Origin: Shigella phage Tf
Sequence record: OR980947
Direction: 5' to 3' (one strand)
Length of the DNA stretch: 64,000 nt
Position numbers and translations under genes: made by a program. This document shows positions 14,402 through 17,464 of this stretch, one piece after another; positions within the stretch are counted from its first letter, which is position 1; each line of letters starts with the position of its first letter. The notes under the pieces were generated by a model. It saw only the letters and a program-made list of their open reading frames with translations, did not search any database and was not told where the DNA came from.

Positions 14402-14432
14402 CTTAAAGAGTTCTTACGAGTATTCTTTAAAG
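14402..14432 (+). promoter_or_regulatory. conserved motif cttaaagaGTTCTTACGAGtaTTCTTTAAAgg (copy 1 of 3)
   Basis: shares GTTCTTACGAG...TCTTTAAA with 17435-17464; located just upstream of RNA elements. Confidence 0.35.
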
Positions 14433-14434
14433 GA

Positions 14435-14513
14435 GCAGAAGACCAATTACAGCAAGTACGTATGATATTTTCAAGCCACTTTAATTTTGAAAAAATTTAA
14501 AACTTGGTCTGGC
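14435..14513 (+). ncRNA. structured inter-tRNA element X3
   Basis: cagaagaccaa...ttggtctgg; same family. Confidence 0.4.
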
Positions 14514-14524
14514 TCAACAAATTT

Positions 14525-14656
14525 ACAGAAGACCGTTTACAGCAAAAATTAAACAATCTATTTCTCGGTAAAGAAAAGGAGAAGGTTCGATTCCTTCACT
14601 CGACAGATGTCGAGTTGGTGTAATGGTAGCACTTAAGATGATAAACAACGGTCTGG
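14525..14656 (+). ncRNA. structured element X4 enclosing the permuted tRNA-like module
   Basis: cagaagaccgtt...aacggtctgg closing stem; interior carries T-arm/acceptor/D-arm in permuted order. Confidence 0.4.
14577..14634 (+). other. circularly permuted tRNA-like element (T-arm plus 3' acceptor strand precede 5' acceptor strand plus D-arm)
   Basis: gaagg-TTCGATT-ccttc, then actcgac, loop agat, then gtcgagt (perfect 7-bp complement), then tg and D-arm gtgt-AATGGTA-gcac; embedded in hairpin element 14525-14656. Confidence 0.45.
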
Positions 14657-14657
14657 T

Positions 14658-14801
14658 AATTATCTTTGTAGATAAGTTATTAAGCTTACCTGTGAGTATG
14701 CGACCACAAAGGGTGAAAGGGTAAATTCTAGATTTAAACCCAACAAGGCACATCGCTACAGACCTTAAGCAAGTCTGGGTAGCTTATCTACAAAGATAAT
14801 T
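14658..14801. repeat. 144-bp element bounded by perfect 19-bp inverted repeats
   Basis: aattatctttgtagataag at 14658-14676 and exact reverse complement at 14783-14801. Confidence 0.6.
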
Positions 14802-14805
14802 TAAT

Positions 14806-14878
14806 GGAAGTGTAGCAGAATGGTGATGCGGCAGACTTTTAATCTGACAGGCGATGGGTTCGAATCCCTCCACTTCTA
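14806..14878 (+). tRNA. tRNA-Lys (anticodon TTT)
   Basis: acceptor ggaagtg/cacttct, anticodon stem caga/tctg loop ctTTTaa, T-loop GGTTCGAATCC, CCA encoded. Confidence 0.65.
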
Positions 14879-14885
14879 CCAATAT

Positions 14886-14959
14886 GGTTCAGTCGCAGAT
14901 AAGGTAATGCAGGGGTCTCATAAGCCCTATGAATGTGGGTTCGATTCCCATCTGAACCT
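14886..14959 (+). tRNA. tRNA-Met/Ile2 (anticodon CAT)
   Basis: acceptor ggttcag/ctgaacc, anticodon loop ctCATaa, T-loop GGTTCGATTCC, CCA encoded. Confidence 0.7.
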
Positions 14960-14964
14960 CCAAA

Positions 14965-15037
14965 GCTGTGAAAGCACATATGGATGTGCATTCGGCTGAT
15001 AACCGAAAGGCAGAAGGTTCGAATCCTTCTCACAGTA
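14965..15037 (+). tRNA. tRNA-Ile (anticodon GAT)
   Basis: full cloverleaf: D-stem gcac/gtgc, anticodon stem ttcgg/ccgaa loop ctGATaa, T-stem gaagg/ccttc, CCA encoded. Confidence 0.8.
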
Positions 15038-15055
15038 CCAATTTCAATAAAGTTG

Positions 15056-15084
15056 TTGACACTGAGATGTGACCACTTTATAGT
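15056..15084 (+). promoter_or_regulatory. sigma70-like promoter inside tRNA cluster (TTGACA-17-TATAGT)
   Basis: aaagttgTTGACActgagatgtgaccacttTATAGT. Confidence 0.5.
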
Positions 15085-15254
15085 AACCTTAGTTTTCGTT
15101 GCGTAGCGTCTATTTTGCAAATTTAAAATAAATGCAAACGACAATGTTTTTCTGGCAGTAGCTTGATAGGCTAAACACCAGTGAGGTCTTCCAATCCCTC
15201 ATCAAAGAATTTGGCGTACTCGCCCACGGTATGATTAATAAGGTGGGCATCTTT

Positions 15255-15282
15255 AAGGGCTTTCTAAGAGAGTCTTTAAAGA
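15255..15282 (+). promoter_or_regulatory. conserved motif ...ctaagagaGTCTTTAAAg (copy 2, partial)
   Basis: agagtctttaaag shared with copy at 17449; just upstream of tRNA-like gene at 15289. Confidence 0.3.
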
Positions 15283-15288
15283 TAATTA

Positions 15289-15367
15289 CGGGGCGTATCT
15301 CAGCTGTCTTCTAAACAGCCGTTAACCGAGTAAGTGGAGTATGCGGGTTCGAGTCCTGCCGCCTCGA
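15289..15367 (+). tRNA. tRNA-like gene, atypical D region; hairpin with Arg-type TCT anticodon loop
   Basis: acceptor cggggcg/cgcctcg plus T-arm and CCA are canonical; a perfect 5-bp hairpin with loop ctTCTaa lies too close to the acceptor for a standard D-arm. Confidence 0.35.
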
Positions 15368-15513
15368 CCAATTTAGTTAGCAGATTGCTTAGACGACCTT
15401 ATCGGGTCTCCGTGTAAGGAGGTGGTCTGTATCTCATGTTTTCCAGAACATGTAAATAATCTGAGAAGGGGCTTTACAGTGTTGCGAAAATACGGTAAGC
15501 TTCGAATTATAGT

Positions 15514-15593
15514 GTGGGACGATGTTAAGACTCTAAGGCATGAGCAACGGCTTCCAACACCGTTTCAAAGGGGTTCAACTCCTCCGTCCCATG
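15514..15593 (+). tRNA. tRNA-like gene, anticodon not resolved
   Basis: acceptor gtgggac/gtcccat, T-loop GGTTCAACTCC, encoded CCA; 80 nt; no clean anticodon arm by manual folding. Confidence 0.35.
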
Positions 15594-15609
15594 CCAAAGT
15601 CTTATTAGG

Positions 15610-15697
15610 GGTAGGTAGCGGCTAATGGTAGCCAAACTGTCTTGAAAACAGTTGCCACTGTAGAGATACGGTGAGGGTTCGACTCCTTTACTTACCG
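15610..15697 (+). tRNA. tRNA-Ser (anticodon TGA), long variable arm
   Basis: 88 nt; 3-bp D-stem; anticodon stem actgt/acagt loop ctTGAaa; long variable arm; T-loop GGTTCGACTCC. Confidence 0.65.
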
Positions 15698-16029: not shown

Positions 16030-16039
16030 CCAAATTAAT

Positions 16040-16112
16040 GCAGGTGTAGCAAAATGGTTATGCGGCTGACTCTTAATCAGTAAGACGATGGGTTCAATTC
16101 CCTCCACCTGTA
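16040..16112 (+). tRNA. tRNA-Lys (anticodon CTT)
   Basis: paralogue of the TTT tRNA at 14806; anticodon stem ctga/tcag loop ctCTTaa; T-loop GGTTCAATTCC; CCA encoded. Confidence 0.6.
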
Positions 16113-16121
16113 CCAGACATT

Positions 16122-16194
16122 GGGGATGTAGTTTACATGGTTAAAACATAAGTTTTGCAAACTTAAGTACAGGGTTCAATTCCCTGCTTCTCCA
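16122..16194 (+). tRNA. tRNA-Ala (anticodon TGC)
   Basis: D-stem gttt/aaac, anticodon stem taagt/actta loop ttTGCaa, T-stem cagg/cctg, CCA encoded. Confidence 0.7.
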
Positions 16195-16203
16195 CCAATT
16201 AGT

Positions 16204-16275
16204 GCATCCATAGTTTAAACGGGAAAATTACAGTCTTCCAAACTGAGGTTGAGGGTTCGATTCCCTCTGGATGCT
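16204..16275 (+). tRNA. tRNA-Gly (anticodon TCC)
   Basis: perfect acceptor gcatcca/tggatgc, anticodon loop ctTCCaa, T-loop GGTTCGATTCC, CCA encoded. Confidence 0.75.
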
Positions 16276-16284
16276 CCAAACAAT

Positions 16285-16358
16285 GCTGCTTTCGTATAAT
16301 TGGCTATTACACATCCCTTGTAAGGATGGAAATGCAGGTTCGAGTCCTGTGAGCAGCA
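16285..16358 (+). tRNA. tRNA-Thr (anticodon TGT)
   Basis: acceptor gctgctt/gagcagc, anticodon stem catcc/ggatg loop ctTGTaa, T-loop GGTTCGAGTCC, CCA encoded. Confidence 0.75.
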
Positions 16359-16456
16359 CCAATTCAGAGGTCAAGTGAAAGACCGCTGGTGTCAACTGAA
16401 GACCGTAACAAATTCCACGGAGTTGAGTTAGCGGCACAACTTCAGACCTCTTTCAC

Positions 16457-16528
16457 ACTCGCTTAGTTTATATGGTAAAACATCACCCTTACAAGATGAA
16501 GAAAAAGGTTCAAGTCCTTTAGTGAGTA
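16457..16528 (+). tRNA. tRNA-Val (anticodon TAC)
   Basis: acceptor actcgct/agtgagt, anticodon loop ctTACaa, T-loop GGTTCAAGTCC, CCA encoded. Confidence 0.7.
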
Positions 16529-16532
16529 CCAT

Positions 16533-16607
16533 GTTCCAGTATCCCAATTGGCAGAGGATGCAAGCTCAAACCTTGTATTAGTGACGGTTCGAATCCGTCT
16601 TGGAACA
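16533..16607 (+). tRNA. tRNA with Leu-type anticodon CAA but short variable region
   Basis: acceptor gttccag/ttggaac, Leu-like D-loop aattggcaga, anticodon stem gcaag/cttgt loop ctCAAac, T-loop GGTTCGAATCC, A73, CCA encoded. Confidence 0.55.
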
Positions 16608-16629
16608 CCAATTTTAAGAGGCTATTTAG

Positions 16630-17187
16630 ATGAGATACTTAAAGTATGCTTCATGGATTTTCTTAGCTTTGTTAGAGCCATTCGCAGCAATCTTAGCAGT
16701 TATCTTAGCACCTTTTGTAGTTCCATTCTATAGTGAGAAGAAAGGACATCTACCTTTCGGATTCAGATGGATGGAGACATATGACAACCCAATTGATGGT
16801 GATGAAGGTCACGTTAAAAGATGGGCTAAGATTAGAAAGATTGGTAATCTTGGTGTCTATTTGCAGAGAGTTGGATGGCTCTGGAGAAACAAAGCTTATA
16901 ACTTCTCTTACCATGTGTTAGGAAGAGACGTAAAAGATGTTACTAAGTGGAAAGGTAATATCAACGTGAGTTCTGACCCTGAAGATAATCAGACAGGTTA
17001 TCTCCTAATGTGGAACAGTAATGCTTGGGGATTATTCGCTTTTGTCCCATCAATTAAAATCTTTGGTAAACAATTCTACTGGAGAATTTATGTTGGATGG
17101 AAACTAAAAAGTGTTGTCCCAGAAGAAAGAGCATTCTCAAGGGAAAGAGTTATGTTGGCATTCTTTATTCATCCACTGAGAAAGTAA
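16630..17187 (+). CDS. hypothetical membrane protein encoded inside the tRNA cluster
   Basis: ORF 185 aa; N-terminal hydrophobic segment (IFLALLEPFAAILAVILAPFVVPF); Trp/Tyr-rich. Confidence 0.45.
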   Translation: MRYLKYASWIFLALLEPFAAILAVILAPFVVPFYSEKKGHLPFGFRWMETYDNPIDGDEGHVKRWAKIRKIGNLGVYLQRVGWLWRNKAYNFSYHVLGRDVKDVTKWKGNINVSSDPEDNQTGYLLMWNSNAWGLFAFVPSIKIFGKQFYWRIYVGWKLKSVVPEERAFSRERVMLAFFIHPLRK

Positions 17188-17195
17188 AGATTTAA

Positions 17196-17268
17196 AGGGG
17201 ATTAGTTTACAAGGTTAAAACCTCGGTCTTTGAAATCGAAGAAGTTGGTTCAATTCCAACATCCCCCG
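17196..17268 (+). tRNA. tRNA-Gln (anticodon TTG)
   Basis: anticodon stem tcggt/atcga loop ctTTGaa, T-stem gttgg/ccaac, CCA encoded. Confidence 0.7.
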
Positions 17269-17273
17269 CCAAT

Positions 17274-17349
17274 GCTCCATTACTCCAATTGGCAGAGAGG
17301 CCAGACTTAAAATCTGTGTTATGTATCGGTTCGAATCCGATATGGAGTA
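17274..17349 (+). tRNA. tRNA with Leu-type anticodon TAA but short variable region
   Basis: paralogue of 16533-16607 (shared aattggcaga D-loop); anticodon stem caga/tctg loop ctTAAaa; T-loop GGTTCGAATCC; A73; CCA encoded. Confidence 0.5.
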
Positions 17350-17357
17350 CCAAATTT

Positions 17358-17430
17358 AGCGGTATAGCATAACTGGCAATGCAGCAGTCTCTGAAGCTGT
17401 CTTATTAAGGTTCAAATCCTTATGCCGCTG
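17358..17430 (+). tRNA. tRNA-Gln (anticodon CTG)
   Basis: D-stem gcat/atgc, anticodon stem gcagt/gctgt loop ctCTGaa, T-loop GGTTCAAATCC, CCA encoded. Confidence 0.7.
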
Positions 17431-17434
17431 CCAC

Positions 17435-17464
17435 TTCTAAGGGTTCTTACGAGAGTCTTTAAAT
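17435..17464 (+). promoter_or_regulatory. conserved motif cttctaagGGTTCTTACGAGagTCTTTAAAtg (copy 3)
   Basis: just upstream of tRNA-His. Confidence 0.35.

What the first reader, a model, noticed from the sequence alone, without database searches (positions are those of the whole stretch)
14402..17464. Conserved GTTCTTACGAG...TCTTTAAA motif upstream of RNA genes
Three sites (14402-14432, 15255-15282, 17435-17464) share cttctaag/cttaaaga-GTTCTTACGAG-N2-TCTTTAAA and sit directly upstream of RNA elements (X3, tRNA-like 15289, tRNA-His). They do not match the sigma70-like promoters elsewhere in the window and may be phage-specific promoters or RNA processing sites within the tRNA precursor.
Basis: seen in the sequence. 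Interest (0 to 1): 0.4.

Follow-up and report, generated by a model that had tools for sequence, protein, structure and literature searches.

The report
Conserved RNA hairpins between phage tRNA genes
The repeated motif is not a promoter. It is the top and 3' side of small conserved RNA stem-loops that sit just in front of tRNA and other RNA genes in a Felix O1-like phage; they are ordinary in kind, but they share a tRNA-Arg-like loop and one of them closes an apparently undescribed tmRNA-like RNA.

Summary
The window is a Felix O1-like phage (Felixounavirus). The finding lies in its + strand tRNA/small-RNA cluster.

**Observation: partly confirmed.** GTTCTTACGAG occurs exactly twice, at 14410 and 17443. 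The third site shares only GAGAGTCTTTAAA.

**What the sites are.** All three are halves of + strand RNA hairpins rich in G.U pairs.
- A fourth (15865-15954) and a fifth (14656-14803) hairpin exist.
- Each ends 0-6 nt before the next RNA gene.
- Covariation across four Ounavirinae genera supports the stems.
- A covariance model finds strong copies only at the two orthologous sites, in the window and in a complete relative genome.

**Promoter and terminator readings fail.**
- There are no sigma-70-like hexamers at the sites.
- No copy lies upstream of a protein gene.
- A transcript starting from such a promoter would begin inside the tRNA.
- The hairpins have no U tract.

**Site 2 (15249-15283)** is the terminal helix of a conserved tmRNA-like RNA with tag frame ANDNVFLAVA**. 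The same hairpin type precedes tRNA-Arg(UCU) in T5-like phages.

**The apex, YUACGAG,** matches 6 of 7 positions of the TadA / tRNA-Arg2 anticodon-loop motif.

**Most likely function (inferred):** structural punctuation of the polycistronic RNA precursor, serving 3'-end protection, folding insulation or processing. The hairpins may also be bound or edited by TadA.

The parts
14398..14435 (+). Outer stem CUCC/GGAG, 9-bp stem UUAAAGAGU/AUUCUUUAA, top CU/AG, loop UACG at 14415-14418. It ends immediately before the X3 RNA (14436).
   Evidence: Fold (-21.1 kcal/mol together with the neighbouring GC hairpin, z -2.85). CM R1 scores 56.2 bits, E 7e-14. Compensatory A-U / G.U / G-C series at one pair across relatives.
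14381..14401 (+). GC-rich hairpin (GAGAGGGCU AUUU AGCCCCUC) directly 5' of S1. Its last bases overlap S1's outer stem. Together they form a tandem two-hairpin module after tRNA-Asp-like 14289-14371.
   Evidence: Conserved in all Felixouna-, Susp- and Mooglevirus loci, with loop variation ATTT/TTTT/TTCT.
15249..15283 (+). A 17-bp stem with three G.U pairs and a short loop. It is the terminal helix of the tmRNA-like RNA and ends 5 nt before tRNA-like 15289.
   Evidence: the repeat finder I10. Fold -20.3 kcal/mol, z -5.4, on + against -6.3 on the minus strand. One-sided G.U to G-C and C-G to U.G changes in CHB7 and Michonne. A long allele in other relatives covaries (HP1 against SUSP2). Aligned to a PK4-region hairpin of Rfam tmRNA. 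Homologous hairpins in T5-like phages.
17436..17463 (+). A 10-bp stem (17438-17447 with 17452-17461) and loop UACG at 17448-17451. It fills the 31-nt spacer between tRNA-Gln(CUG) and tRNA-His.
   Evidence: Fold. CM R1 scores 52.6 bits. G.U to A-U and G.U to G-C changes in relatives. Annotated as 'terminator' in phage Michonne, but it has no U tract.
15865..15954 (+). A 26-bp basal stem with branched top. Its 3' arm, GGUUCUUAGAAGUUCUCUAAAAAGA, resembles the motif. It ends 2-6 nt before tRNA-Leu(UAG) at 15955.
   Evidence: the repeat finder I2. Fold -36.7 kcal/mol, z -6.5. 98.1% of 260 cells paired, against 34-65% in slid controls; 8 pairs vary on one side only and 1 pair changes on both sides.
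14656..14803 (+). Structured RNA S5. Its 22-bp closing stem has the 3' arm CUUAUCUACAAAGAUAAUU, which ends 4 nt before tRNA-Lys(UUU) at 14806.
   Evidence: the repeat finder I1. Folds and compensatory differences between the window and CHB7/HP1.
15090..15283 (+). tmRNA-like (mRNA-like domain only) RNA, of which S2 is the last helix.
- Promoter TTGACA-17-TATAGT at 15056-15084.
- Tag frame GCA...GCU at 15134-15163 (ANDNVFLAVA), followed by stops UGA UAG at 15164-15169.
- Helix-5-like hairpin at 15152-15181.
- Pseudoknot: 15182-15186 with 15197-15201, and 15191-15194 with 15211-15214.
- GC hairpin at 15223-15247.
15289..15370 (+). Degenerate T5-type tRNA-Arg(UCU)-like gene downstream of S2: C1-G72, G3.U70, D arm deleted, long variable region.
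   Evidence: Rfam tRNA 31.2 bits. Comparison with T5 tRNA-Arg(UCU). An ordinary tRNA-Arg(UCU) sits here in other relatives.

Best explanation
**What they are.** The three sites are parts of a family of cis-acting RNA stem-loops in the + strand polycistronic transcript of the phage's tRNA/small-RNA cluster.
- S1 (14398-14435) and S3 (17436-17463) are short hairpins capped by U-UACG-A.
- S2 (15249-15283) is the terminal helix of a tmRNA-like RNA. It belongs to an old 'hairpin then tRNA-Arg(UCU)' module also found in T5-like phages.
- Together with two larger hairpins (S4, S5), each sits 0-6 nt 5' of the first RNA gene of a block.

**Shown here.**
- The structure, the strand, the conservation and the covariation.
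- Restriction to the RNA cluster.
- Absence of promoter and terminator features.

**Inferred: how they work.** They act as structural punctuation of the precursor.
- Once RNase P cuts at the 5' end of the downstream tRNA, the hairpin becomes the 3'-terminal structure of the upstream fragment. That fragment is an ncRNA such as the tmRNA-like RNA, or an mRNA in T5-like phages.
- There it can block 3' exonucleases.
- It can also keep long spacer sequence from mispairing with the neighbouring RNA gene.

**The apex.** The conserved apex YUACGAG suggests that a factor reading the tRNA-Arg(ACG) anticodon loop also binds, most plausibly TadA.
For: **Structure and strand.**
- All four sites fold on the + strand with z-scores of -2.3 to -6.5. 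S2, S3 and S4 fold much worse on the minus strand because of 3-7 G.U pairs.

**Conservation and covariation.**
- S1 and S3 are conserved at orthologous positions in Felixouna-, Susp- and Mooglevirus, and once in the Erwinia phage Kolesnikvirus.
- S1/S3/Erwinia alignment: 91.7% of cells paired against 41-64% in slid controls; 5 pairs changed on both sides.
- S4: 98.1% paired over 26 pairs.
- S2 long allele and S5 show compensatory changes.

**Distribution.**
- The covariance model finds strong copies only at S1 and S3, in the window and in the complete REP9 genome. All are on the tRNA strand.

**Transcription context.**
- The cluster has its own sigma-70 promoters at 13556, 13647 and 15056, and a terminator at 18711-18734.

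**Homologues in T5-like phages.**
- The hairpin lies 4 nt upstream of tRNA-Arg(UCU) in T5 (38.8 bits).
- It lies at the end of an upstream unit, before an ORF, in Eos, IME260 and My1.

**S2 belongs to a larger RNA.**
- It is the last helix of a covariation-supported tmRNA-like RNA.

**Apex motif.**
- UUACGAG matches 6 of 7 positions of the TadA motif YUACGAA, which must lie in a stem-loop (PMC12255301; PMC5630033).
Against: - No transcript-end or cleavage data exist for any Felix O1-like phage in the searched literature.
- For S3 the upstream RNA is a tRNA whose CCA end must be freed. A hairpin 4 nt downstream would hinder exonucleolytic trimming rather than help it.
- S3 alone is weakly stable in this window (-4.3 kcal/mol).
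- S1 folds equally well on both strands.
- The apical UACG is replaced by UAUA in the T5-like phage mar003J3. It is absent from S2 of Felix-like phages. A loop-specific factor is therefore not always required.
- Much of the covariation in the S1/S3 alignment is between paralogous sites rather than within one site.
Confidence: 0.55

Rival explanations
1. tRNA-Arg(ACG) anticodon-arm mimic. The hairpin apex (Y-U-A-C-G-A-G) is recognised by TadA, the tRNA-Arg2 A34 deaminase, or by another factor that reads this loop, such as an anticodon nuclease. The hairpins would then be edited A-to-I at 14416 and 17449, or act as decoys or sponges. This can coexist with the structural role.
For: - UUACGAG is invariant in 13 distinct S1, S3 and Erwinia variants, while the lower stem covaries.
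- The same UACGAGAG apex occurs in T5, Eos, IME260 and My1.
- The published TadA requirement is UACG within YUACGAA in a stem-loop, and 26% of edited mRNA sites deviate by one base (PMC12255301; PMC5630033).
- The phage's own tRNA-Arg(ACG) loops read CUACGAA.
Against: - The predicted loop is a 4-nt UACG closed by U-A, not a 7-nt loop. A 7-nt loop would need the top two pairs to open.
- mar003J3 has UAUA.
- S2 in Felix-like phages lacks UACG.
- No editing data exist.
- No benefit to the phage is evident.
Confidence: 0.2
2. Endonuclease (RNase III-type) processing sites. The double-stranded stems are cut to separate blocks of the precursor, as in T7 early RNA or rRNA operons.
For: - S2 (17 bp), S4 (26+ bp) and S5 (22 bp) are long enough for RNase III.
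- They lie at block boundaries on the transcribed strand.
Against: - S1 and S3, the two sites with the exact motif, have only 10-12 contiguous pairs.
- A conserved loop is not a feature of RNase III sites.
- Nothing was tested.
Confidence: 0.12
3. Intrinsic terminators or attenuators that lower transcription into downstream blocks, as S3 is annotated in phage Michonne.
For: - Michonne annotation 'terminator' over the S3 equivalent.
- Immediately upstream of S4 a small hairpin, AAAGACC-loop-GGUCUUU, is followed by UUUUU. Its stem is conserved and its loop variable.
Against: - None of S1-S4 passes the terminator scan.
- The stems are AU-rich with G.U pairs. The tails are A-rich (AAU, AUAAUUA, GGAG), not U tracts.
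- tRNA genes follow within 0-6 nt and are conserved, so read-through must be the rule.
Confidence: 0.06
4. Phage-specific promoters.
For: - Conserved sequence directly upstream of RNA genes.
- AT-rich 3' ends (GATAAT, TTTAAT) resemble -10 elements.
Against: - No sigma-70-like site at the motifs.
- No strong copy upstream of any protein-coding gene in a whole genome.
- Start sites would fall inside the mature tRNA.
- The pattern of G.U-preserving and compensatory substitutions indicates selection on RNA pairing.
Confidence: 0.03
5. Functionless relics: duplicated fragments of the terminal hairpin of the tmRNA-like RNA or of the hairpin-tRNA-Arg module, carried along by recombination in a mosaic region.
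For: - S3, S4, S2 and the Erwinia and T5 hairpins are clearly related in sequence.
- The region is mosaic: short and long S2 alleles and two tRNA alleles assort independently, and HNH genes replace S4 in some phages.
Against: Orthologous retention of S1 and S3 across three genera, with pair-preserving substitutions, argues for selection.
Confidence: 0.04

Closest known systems
Intercistronic processing and stability hairpins of polycistronic phage and bacterial transcripts (T7 early RNase III sites; spacer and trailer hairpins of E. coli tRNA operons, e.g. Mohanty and Kushner 2008, PMC2241853)
   Same: Transcribed-strand stem-loops placed between genes of one precursor. After endonucleolytic separation they are expected to end up at RNA termini and to influence processing order and stability.
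   Different: These are short, AU-rich and G.U-rich, with a conserved UACG-containing apex. They lie 5' of RNA genes rather than after the last gene. No cleavage has been shown.
TadA substrates: the tRNA-Arg2 anticodon arm and TadA-edited mRNA stem-loops (YUACGAA motif)
   Same: A UACG core with a flanking pyrimidine-U and A (6 of 7 positions) at the apex of a stem-loop, in enterobacterial hosts that carry TadA.
   Different: The last motif position is G rather than A. The predicted loop is 4 nt (6 nt if the U-A pair opens), not 7. Editing has not been tested.
Intrinsic (rho-independent) terminators
   Same: A hairpin in an intergenic spacer. The S3 equivalent is annotated as a terminator in phage Michonne.
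   Different: No U tract and a low-GC stem. Functional RNA genes start 0-6 nt downstream.
tmRNA (SsrA), relevant for S2 only
   Same: S2 follows these features in order: an A-rich resume region, a 10-codon tag starting GCA AAC GA(C/U) and ending in Ala plus stop codons, a helix-5-like hairpin holding the stops, an H-type pseudoknot, and further hairpins. Rfam tmRNA aligns S2 to a late pseudoknot hairpin.
   Different: No tRNA-like domain and no CCA end were found. The Rfam score is 16 bits against a threshold of 47. In other phages the RNA ends in a terminator-like stem.
Antitermination RNA elements (lambda nut boxA/boxB, rrn boxA GCUCUUUAA, HK022 put)
   Same: An RNA-level element in a long untranslated transcript. 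The 3' arms contain UCUUUAA, and the HP1 allele reads GUGCUCUUUAAAA.
   Different: The boxA-like bases are base-paired inside the stem. The GC of boxA is missing in the window. The elements lie in the middle of the cluster, not next to a promoter. Regarded as coincidence.

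Membership tests
Sigma-70-type or phage-specific promoter | Recognisable -35 and -10 hexamers (or a phage consensus) at proper spacing | tested here: not met
   The scan of 13300-18900 lists 16 promoter-like sites, none at 14402-14432, 15255-15282 or 17435-17464.
Sigma-70-type or phage-specific promoter | Recurrence upstream of many transcription units across the genome | tested here: not met
   CM R1 and the pattern searches give strong copies only at two spots in the RNA cluster, in the 64-kb window and in the 85.8-kb REP9 genome.
Sigma-70-type or phage-specific promoter | Transcript 5' triphosphate ends a few nt downstream | not testable with these tools
   No transcript data. 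Geometry argues against it: the motif ends 1-6 nt before the mature RNA 5' ends.
Intrinsic terminator | G+C-rich stem followed by a U tract | tested here: not met
   Not reported by the terminator scan. The tails are GGAGCAG, AUAAUUAC and AAUGUGG.
RNase III processing site | About two helical turns (roughly 20 bp) of dsRNA | tested here: inconclusive
   S2 has 17 bp, S4 26 bp and S5 22 bp. S1 has 9+2 pairs (plus 4 outer pairs) and S3 has 10.
RNase III processing site | Staggered cleavage in the stem that depends on rnc | not testable with these tools
   No data.
Conserved structured RNA element (general) | Base pairs maintained by compensatory or wobble-compatible substitutions across relatives | tested here: met
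   - A1: 91.7% paired, 5 pairs with changes on both sides, 0 of 500 shuffles reach the covariation score.
- A3: 98.1% paired, 8 one-sided G.U/A-U/G-C changes.
TadA substrate (tRNA-Arg2 anticodon-loop mimic) | UACG core within YUACGAA | tested here: met
   S1 and S3 read UUACGAG: core 4 of 4, extended motif 6 of 7. Motif definition from PMC12255301.
TadA substrate (tRNA-Arg2 anticodon-loop mimic) | Motif presented in a 7-nt loop on a stem | tested here: inconclusive
   The motif is at the apex of a stem, but the minimum-energy fold gives a 4-nt loop closed by U-A and C-G.
TadA substrate (tRNA-Arg2 anticodon-loop mimic) | A-to-I conversion in RNA that depends on TadA | not testable with these tools
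   No RNA-seq available.
tmRNA (for the RNA that contains S2) | Tag reading frame with a resume codon, ending in stop codon(s) inside or next to helix 5 | tested here: met
   - 15134-15169 encodes ANDNVFLAVA**.
- The frame is kept at a constant 10 codons, with synonymous changes, in 11 phages of several families.
- ARAGORN reports this tag in HP1, and in the window at a relaxed threshold.
- The helix enclosing the stops covaries.
tmRNA (for the RNA that contains S2) | Pseudoknot(s) flanking the tag frame | tested here: met
   One H-type pseudoknot 3' of the frame. Both stems are 100% paired, with 3 and 2 covarying pairs. PK1 was not resolved.
tmRNA (for the RNA that contains S2) | tRNA-like domain with acceptor stem, G3.U70, T arm and CCA end | tested here: not met
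   - No tmRNA called in the window by ARAGORN.
- The Rfam match covers only model positions 56-295 of 374.
- The stand-alone homologues examined (Vi01, BUCT610, SP-076, C1) show no tRNA-like domain or CCA end by inspection, and the Vi01 copy ends in a terminator-like stem.
- The downstream tRNA-like gene is a T5-type tRNA-Arg(UCU).
tmRNA (for the RNA that contains S2) | Rfam RF00023 gathering score | tested here: not met
   16 bits against a gathering score of 47.

The most novel reading that the evidence does not exclude
The UUACGAG-capped hairpins are deliberate mimics of the tRNA-Arg(ACG) anticodon arm, kept by Felix O1-like and T5-like phages next to their RNA genes. They would be bound or edited by the essential host deaminase TadA, or act as decoys for a nuclease that targets tRNA-Arg. 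One member of the family closes a widespread, so far apparently undescribed, phage tmRNA-like RNA that encodes an SsrA-like tag (AND..(L/M)xA) but has no tRNA-like domain. On this reading the phage RNA cluster is a toolkit of translation-machinery mimics rather than a simple codon supplement.
Probability: 0.15. Interest if true: 0.75.

Novelty: new member of a known kind. Interest (0 to 1): 0.45.

Why it matters
**As promoters** the motifs would have been a clue to how Felix O1-like phages time transcription. They are not promoters.

**As conserved RNA hairpins** they mark how a 5-kb array of tRNAs and small RNAs is punctuated. They give precise, testable positions for RNA-end mapping, and for A-to-I editing at 14416 and 17449.

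**The wider value is in where they led.**
- The same hairpin type is shared by two unrelated, therapeutically used phage groups: Felix O1-like and T5-like.
- One copy is the terminal helix of a covariation-supported tmRNA-like RNA, found in more than 600 enterobacterial phage records.
- I could not find that RNA described in Rfam or in the searched literature.

If that RNA takes part in, or interferes with, ribosome rescue, it would be a new way for phages to manipulate host translation quality control.

Tried and rejected
- **IMG/VR scan.** Scanning for GTTCTTACGAGNNTNYTT returned 120 stretches. Only those on Felix O1-like or Erwinia-phage contigs, next to tRNAs, are real. The rest are chance matches to 14 specified bases, so the scan added variants but no new lineages.
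- **CM hit at 6505-6538 (23.8 bits).** It lies inside a minus-strand ORF (6247-6792). Treated as a chance palindrome.
- **Weak CM hits in REP9.** The intergenic hits at L130 1999-2035 and 3270-3305 are a different repeated element, AAAAGGTCTTTA..GAGGGTCTTTTAAT, lying after terminators in the early region. The hit at L131 28122-28162 is an ordinary GC-rich terminator hairpin followed by a T run. The early-region element is absent from the window.
- **boxA / nut-like antitermination.** UCUUUAA resembles rrn boxA GCUCUUUAA (own knowledge), but it is base-paired and lacks the GC in this window. Rejected as coincidence.
- **Sarcin-ricin loop mimic.** UACGAGAG equals 23S rRNA 2656-2663 (own knowledge). 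The covariation-supported register does not give a GAGA tetraloop, and S1 reads UACGAGUA. Rejected.
- **Alanine identity of the tRNA-like 15289-15370 as a tmRNA acceptor piece.** It has G3.U70 and A73, but T5's ordinary tRNA-Arg(UCU) has the same C1-G72 and G3.U70 stem. Rejected.
- **Long-range helix proposed by RNAalifold.** Pairing 15097-15102 with about 15209-15216 is broken in SP-076, whereas the pseudoknot partner covaries.
- **PDB sequence search with the upstream DUF2828 protein.** It gave no Ro60 hit, so the Y-RNA/Ro idea for the X elements stays a lead.
- **Literature searches.** Searches for Felix O1 transcriptomics, phage tmRNA-like RNAs, DUF2828 and T5 tRNA-region transcripts found nothing relevant.

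Full report
**Context**

The 5-kb stretch around the finding is 96-97% identical to Escherichia phages REP9 and allfine. It matches 315 phage records, nearly all of them Ounavirinae, including Felix O1. It is the + strand tRNA cluster of a Felix O1-like phage.
- ARAGORN finds 23 tRNAs between 13703 and 18548. Rfam adds 14289-14371 and, in a restricted search, 15289-15367.
- Consensus sigma-70 promoters lie at 13556-13584 and 13647-13676, and at 15056-15084 (TTGACA-17-TATAGT, 11 of 12). The last is the P45 promoter of the Felix O1 genome paper (PMC3185647).
- A canonical terminator follows tRNA-Cys at 18711-18734.

**Observation**

- GTTCTTACGAG occurs on the + strand of the cluster only at 14410 and 17443.
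- The full pattern with up to 3 mismatches hits only these two sites. Shuffles give 0.02 expected, and 0 of 100 shuffles reach two hits.
- The third site (15255-15282) lacks the 11-mer. It shares GAGAGTCTTTAAA and a similar 5' part with site 3.
- The positional statement is right: the motifs end 3, 6 and 1 nt before X3 (14436), the tRNA-like gene (15289) and tRNA-His (17465).

**What the sites are**

Each is half of an inverted repeat. On the + strand they fold as follows:

| Hairpin | Coordinates | Fold |
|---|---|---|
| S1 | 14398-14435 | -21.1 kcal/mol with the adjacent GC hairpin |
| S2 | 15249-15283 | 17 bp, -20.3 kcal/mol, z -5.4 |
| S3 | 17436-17463 | 10 bp, UACG loop |
| S4 (unlisted) | 15865-15954 | -36.7 kcal/mol, z -6.5; directly upstream of tRNA-Leu(UAG) |

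- S2, S3 and S4 contain 3-7 G.U pairs and fold far worse on the minus strand: -6.3, -7.1 and -25.4 kcal/mol (one search gives -4.6, 0.0 and -25.4). That points to RNA on the tRNA strand. S1 is symmetric and says nothing about strand.
- A fifth element, S5 (14656-14803), is a 148-nt structured RNA. Its 22-bp closing stem ends 4 nt before tRNA-Lys(UUU).
- The 3' arms and leaders resemble each other, roughly YCUNNAAAGAU-(0-3)-UUAAU followed by the tRNA.

**Conservation**

- S1 and S3 sit at orthologous positions in Felixouna-, Susp- and Mooglevirus.
- Erwinia phage phiEa104 (Kolesnikvirus) has AAAGGUUCUUACGAGAGUCUUU 10 nt upstream of tRNA-Leu(CAA).
- In a gap-free structural alignment of 13 distinct variants, 91.7% of cells pair, against 41-64% when the 3' partners are slid. 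Five pairs change on both sides, including an A-U / G.U / G-C series within S1. Columns 13-22 (UUCUUACGAG) are invariant.
- S4 is 98.1% paired over 26 pairs, with eight one-sided G.U/A-U/G-C changes and one double change.
- S2 exists as a short and a long allele. HP1 and SUSP2 versions of the long allele differ by three compensatory pairs.
- S5 differs from the CHB7 version by several compensatory pairs.

**Distribution**

A covariance model of the S1/S3 hairpin gave these results.
- In the window it scores 56 and 53 bits at S1 and S3 and 17 bits at S2. A 24-bit hit lies inside a minus-strand ORF.
- In the complete REP9 genome it again finds only S1 and S3 as strong hits.
- Weak intergenic hits there are a different early-region repeat or ordinary terminators.

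The element is therefore confined to the RNA cluster, always on the transcribed strand, and always just 5' of an RNA gene.

**Promoter and terminator readings**

- None of the sites is promoter-like or terminator-like in the scans.
- There is no U tract.
- A -10-like end lying 1-6 nt before a mature tRNA 5' end would start transcription inside the tRNA.
- The substitution pattern preserves RNA pairing.
- The Michonne annotation of S3 as a terminator is not supported by the sequence.
- The Felix O1 paper lists no terminator in the tRNA region beyond t42/t43, at 23542-23575.

**S2 and the tmRNA-like RNA**

The 195 nt between the 15056 promoter and S2 are conserved as far as the Erwinia phages. 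They contain the following.
- A tmRNA-style tag frame: GCA AAC GAC AAU GUU UUU CUG GCA GUA GCU UGA UAG (15134-15169, ANDNVFLAVA**).
- Synonymous changes in relatives. Erwinia reads ANDAQFLAVA** with four synonymous substitutions.
- Rfam tmRNA aligns weakly (16 bits, model positions 56-295). It places S2 on a late pseudoknot hairpin.
- ARAGORN reports the same tag in HP1, and in the window at a relaxed threshold.

A distant BLAST search finds the core in 628 phage records. They include:
- Kuttervirus Vi01;
- Schitoviridae FSL SP-076;
- Klebsiella and E. coli siphoviruses;
- a 62-kb Enterobacter phage that carries an antitermination protein Q gene (lambdoid-like);
- a 110-kb Klebsiella phage with no family assigned (length typical of T5-like phages).

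Their tags are ANDNTFLAVA, ANEEMYLAVA, ANDDVVLMSA, ANDDVVLMAA and ANDDQFLAVA, always 10 codons. An alignment of 11 phages gives 95.5% paired cells and 12 of 22 pairs with double-sided changes. The supported elements are a helix enclosing the stop codons, an H-type pseudoknot and a GC hairpin.

No tRNA-like domain was found. A 2014 survey listed phage ssrA only in mycobacteriophages and Bacillus phage G (PMC4131195). My literature searches found no description of this RNA.

S2 is thus an integral terminal helix of this RNA. Its stem (AAGAGCAU...GUGCUCUUU in HP1) is recognisably shared with the Klebsiella siphovirus BUCT610.

**Link to T5-like phages**

- The S2 hairpin also matches T5-like phages.
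- In T5, GUAUUUUUAAGAGUUUU-UACG-AGAGUUCUUAAAAAUAC lies 4 nt upstream of tRNA-Arg(UCU) (38.8 bits).
- That tRNA begins CGGGG with G3.U70, like the degenerate tRNA-like gene at 15289.
- In Eos, IME260 and My1 the hairpin precedes an ORF. In mar003J3 the loop is UAUA.
- A weaker hairpin of the same style precedes T5 tRNA-Tyr, the first tRNA of a block.

**Mechanism**

Shown here:
- + strand RNA hairpins under selection for pairing;
- placement at block boundaries, 0-6 nt 5' of RNA genes in the window (10 nt in the Erwinia copy);
- no promoter or terminator features.

Inferred:
- After RNase P cuts the downstream tRNA, the hairpin becomes the 3' end of the upstream RNA and can block 3' exonucleases. 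It can also insulate folding. This rests on established knowledge of tRNA operon processing by RNase E and RNase P; see PMC2241853 for the effect of hairpins on processing order.
- This fits S2 and the T5-like cases best. It fits S3 least, because there the upstream RNA is a tRNA whose CCA end must be freed.

The conserved apex has a specific candidate reader.
- UUACGAG is 6 of 7 positions of YUACGAA, the stem-loop motif required by TadA. In that study 26% of edited sites were one base off the motif (PMC12255301; PMC5630033).
- Editing at 14416 and 17449 is therefore a concrete prediction, not a result.

**Verdict**

- The promoter reading is rejected.
- The RNA-level reading is supported in kind, but its mechanism is untested.
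- The hairpins are a new member of a known kind of element.
- The more unusual items are the TadA-like apex shared by Felix O1-like and T5-like phages, and the tmRNA-like RNA that S2 belongs to.

Noticed in passing
window 15090-15283 (promoter 15056-15084; tag frame 15134-15169): tmRNA-like RNA with an mRNA-like domain only.
- It has an SsrA-like 10-codon tag (ANDNVFLAVA**), a helix-5-like hairpin holding the stops, an H-type pseudoknot and further hairpins, all supported by covariation.
- Homologues lie in 628 phage records from several unrelated families.
- No tRNA-like domain was found, there is no Rfam family, and I found no description in the searched literature.
   Followed up: partly
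window 13870-13947, 14040-14100, 14436-14513, 14527-14657; ORF 12122-13537: Four 'X' RNAs share a closing stem, CAGAAGACC...GGUCUGG.
- X4 encloses a T arm, an acceptor-like stem-loop and a D-arm-like hairpin. That architecture resembles the YrlA-type bacterial Y RNAs (PMC4201824).
- The gene just upstream encodes a DUF2828 + DUF7788 protein, annotated 'RNA-binding protein' in relatives. A Ro60 / Y RNA-like pair is possible.
- A PDB sequence search gave no Ro60 hit.
   Followed up: partly
window 15289-15370: Degenerate T5-type tRNA-Arg(UCU)-like gene: C1-G72, G3.U70, A73, anticodon loop CUUCUAA, D arm reduced to 4 nt and a 20-nt extra variable region. It is present in 14 of the fetched relatives, while others carry an ordinary tRNA-Arg(UCU) at this spot. 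The alleles assort independently of the short and long S2 alleles.
   Followed up: partly
window 17465-17541: The phage tRNA-His has C73 but U at position -1 (AAAU|GUGGCC), so the G-1 normally encoded in bacteria is not encoded. tRNAscan called the Felix O1 copy a pseudogene (PMC3185647).
   Followed up: no
window 14289-14371: tRNA-like gene with an oversized anticodon-region loop (CUCCC-15 nt-GGGAG). Rfam tRNA scores 44 bits, but ARAGORN does not call it. REP9 annotates it as tRNA-Thr(CGT) of 86 nt, while allfine and Felix O1 have a normal tRNA-Asp here.
   Followed up: no
window about 15505-15596: Another tRNA-like sequence: acceptor GUGGGAC/GUCCCAU, T arm, CCA, and an apparent 9-nt anticodon loop CUUCCAACA. 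It is not called by ARAGORN or Rfam and is conserved in relatives.
   Followed up: no
window 16362-16456: A 95-nt spacer between tRNA-Thr and tRNA-Val folds as a closed structured RNA (AGAGGUC...GACCUCU, -30.7 kcal/mol, z -3.0). It is nearly invariant in all relatives.
   Followed up: no
window 15854-15878: Small hairpin AAAGACC-loop-GGUCUUU followed by UUUUU. Its stem is conserved and its loop is highly variable among relatives. It overlaps the 5' arm of S4, so the two structures are mutually exclusive. It could be a weak terminator.
   Followed up: no
L130 (REP9) 1999-2035 and 3270-3305, minus strand: A repeated early-region element, UAAAAGGUCUUUA(A/G)(A/G)GAGGGUCUUUUAAU, lies just after intrinsic terminators and before the next gene. 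It is absent from the window and may be a regulatory site.
   Followed up: no
window 49805-50080, minus strand: Rfam group I intron, 62.9 bits over the full-length model, although the Felix O1 genome paper states that introns are absent. In REP9 the anaerobic ribonucleotide reductase large-subunit gene is annotated in two pieces.
   Followed up: no
L005 (Michonne) 2909-3361; L121, L124; L002 (Felix O1) 1726-2220 and 4018-4431: HNH endonuclease genes are inserted at different tRNA spacers in different relatives. In Michonne and two IMG/VR contigs the HNH gene takes the place of hairpin S4 directly upstream of tRNA-Leu(UAG). The hairpin-bearing spacers are therefore recombination and insertion hot spots.
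   Followed up: no
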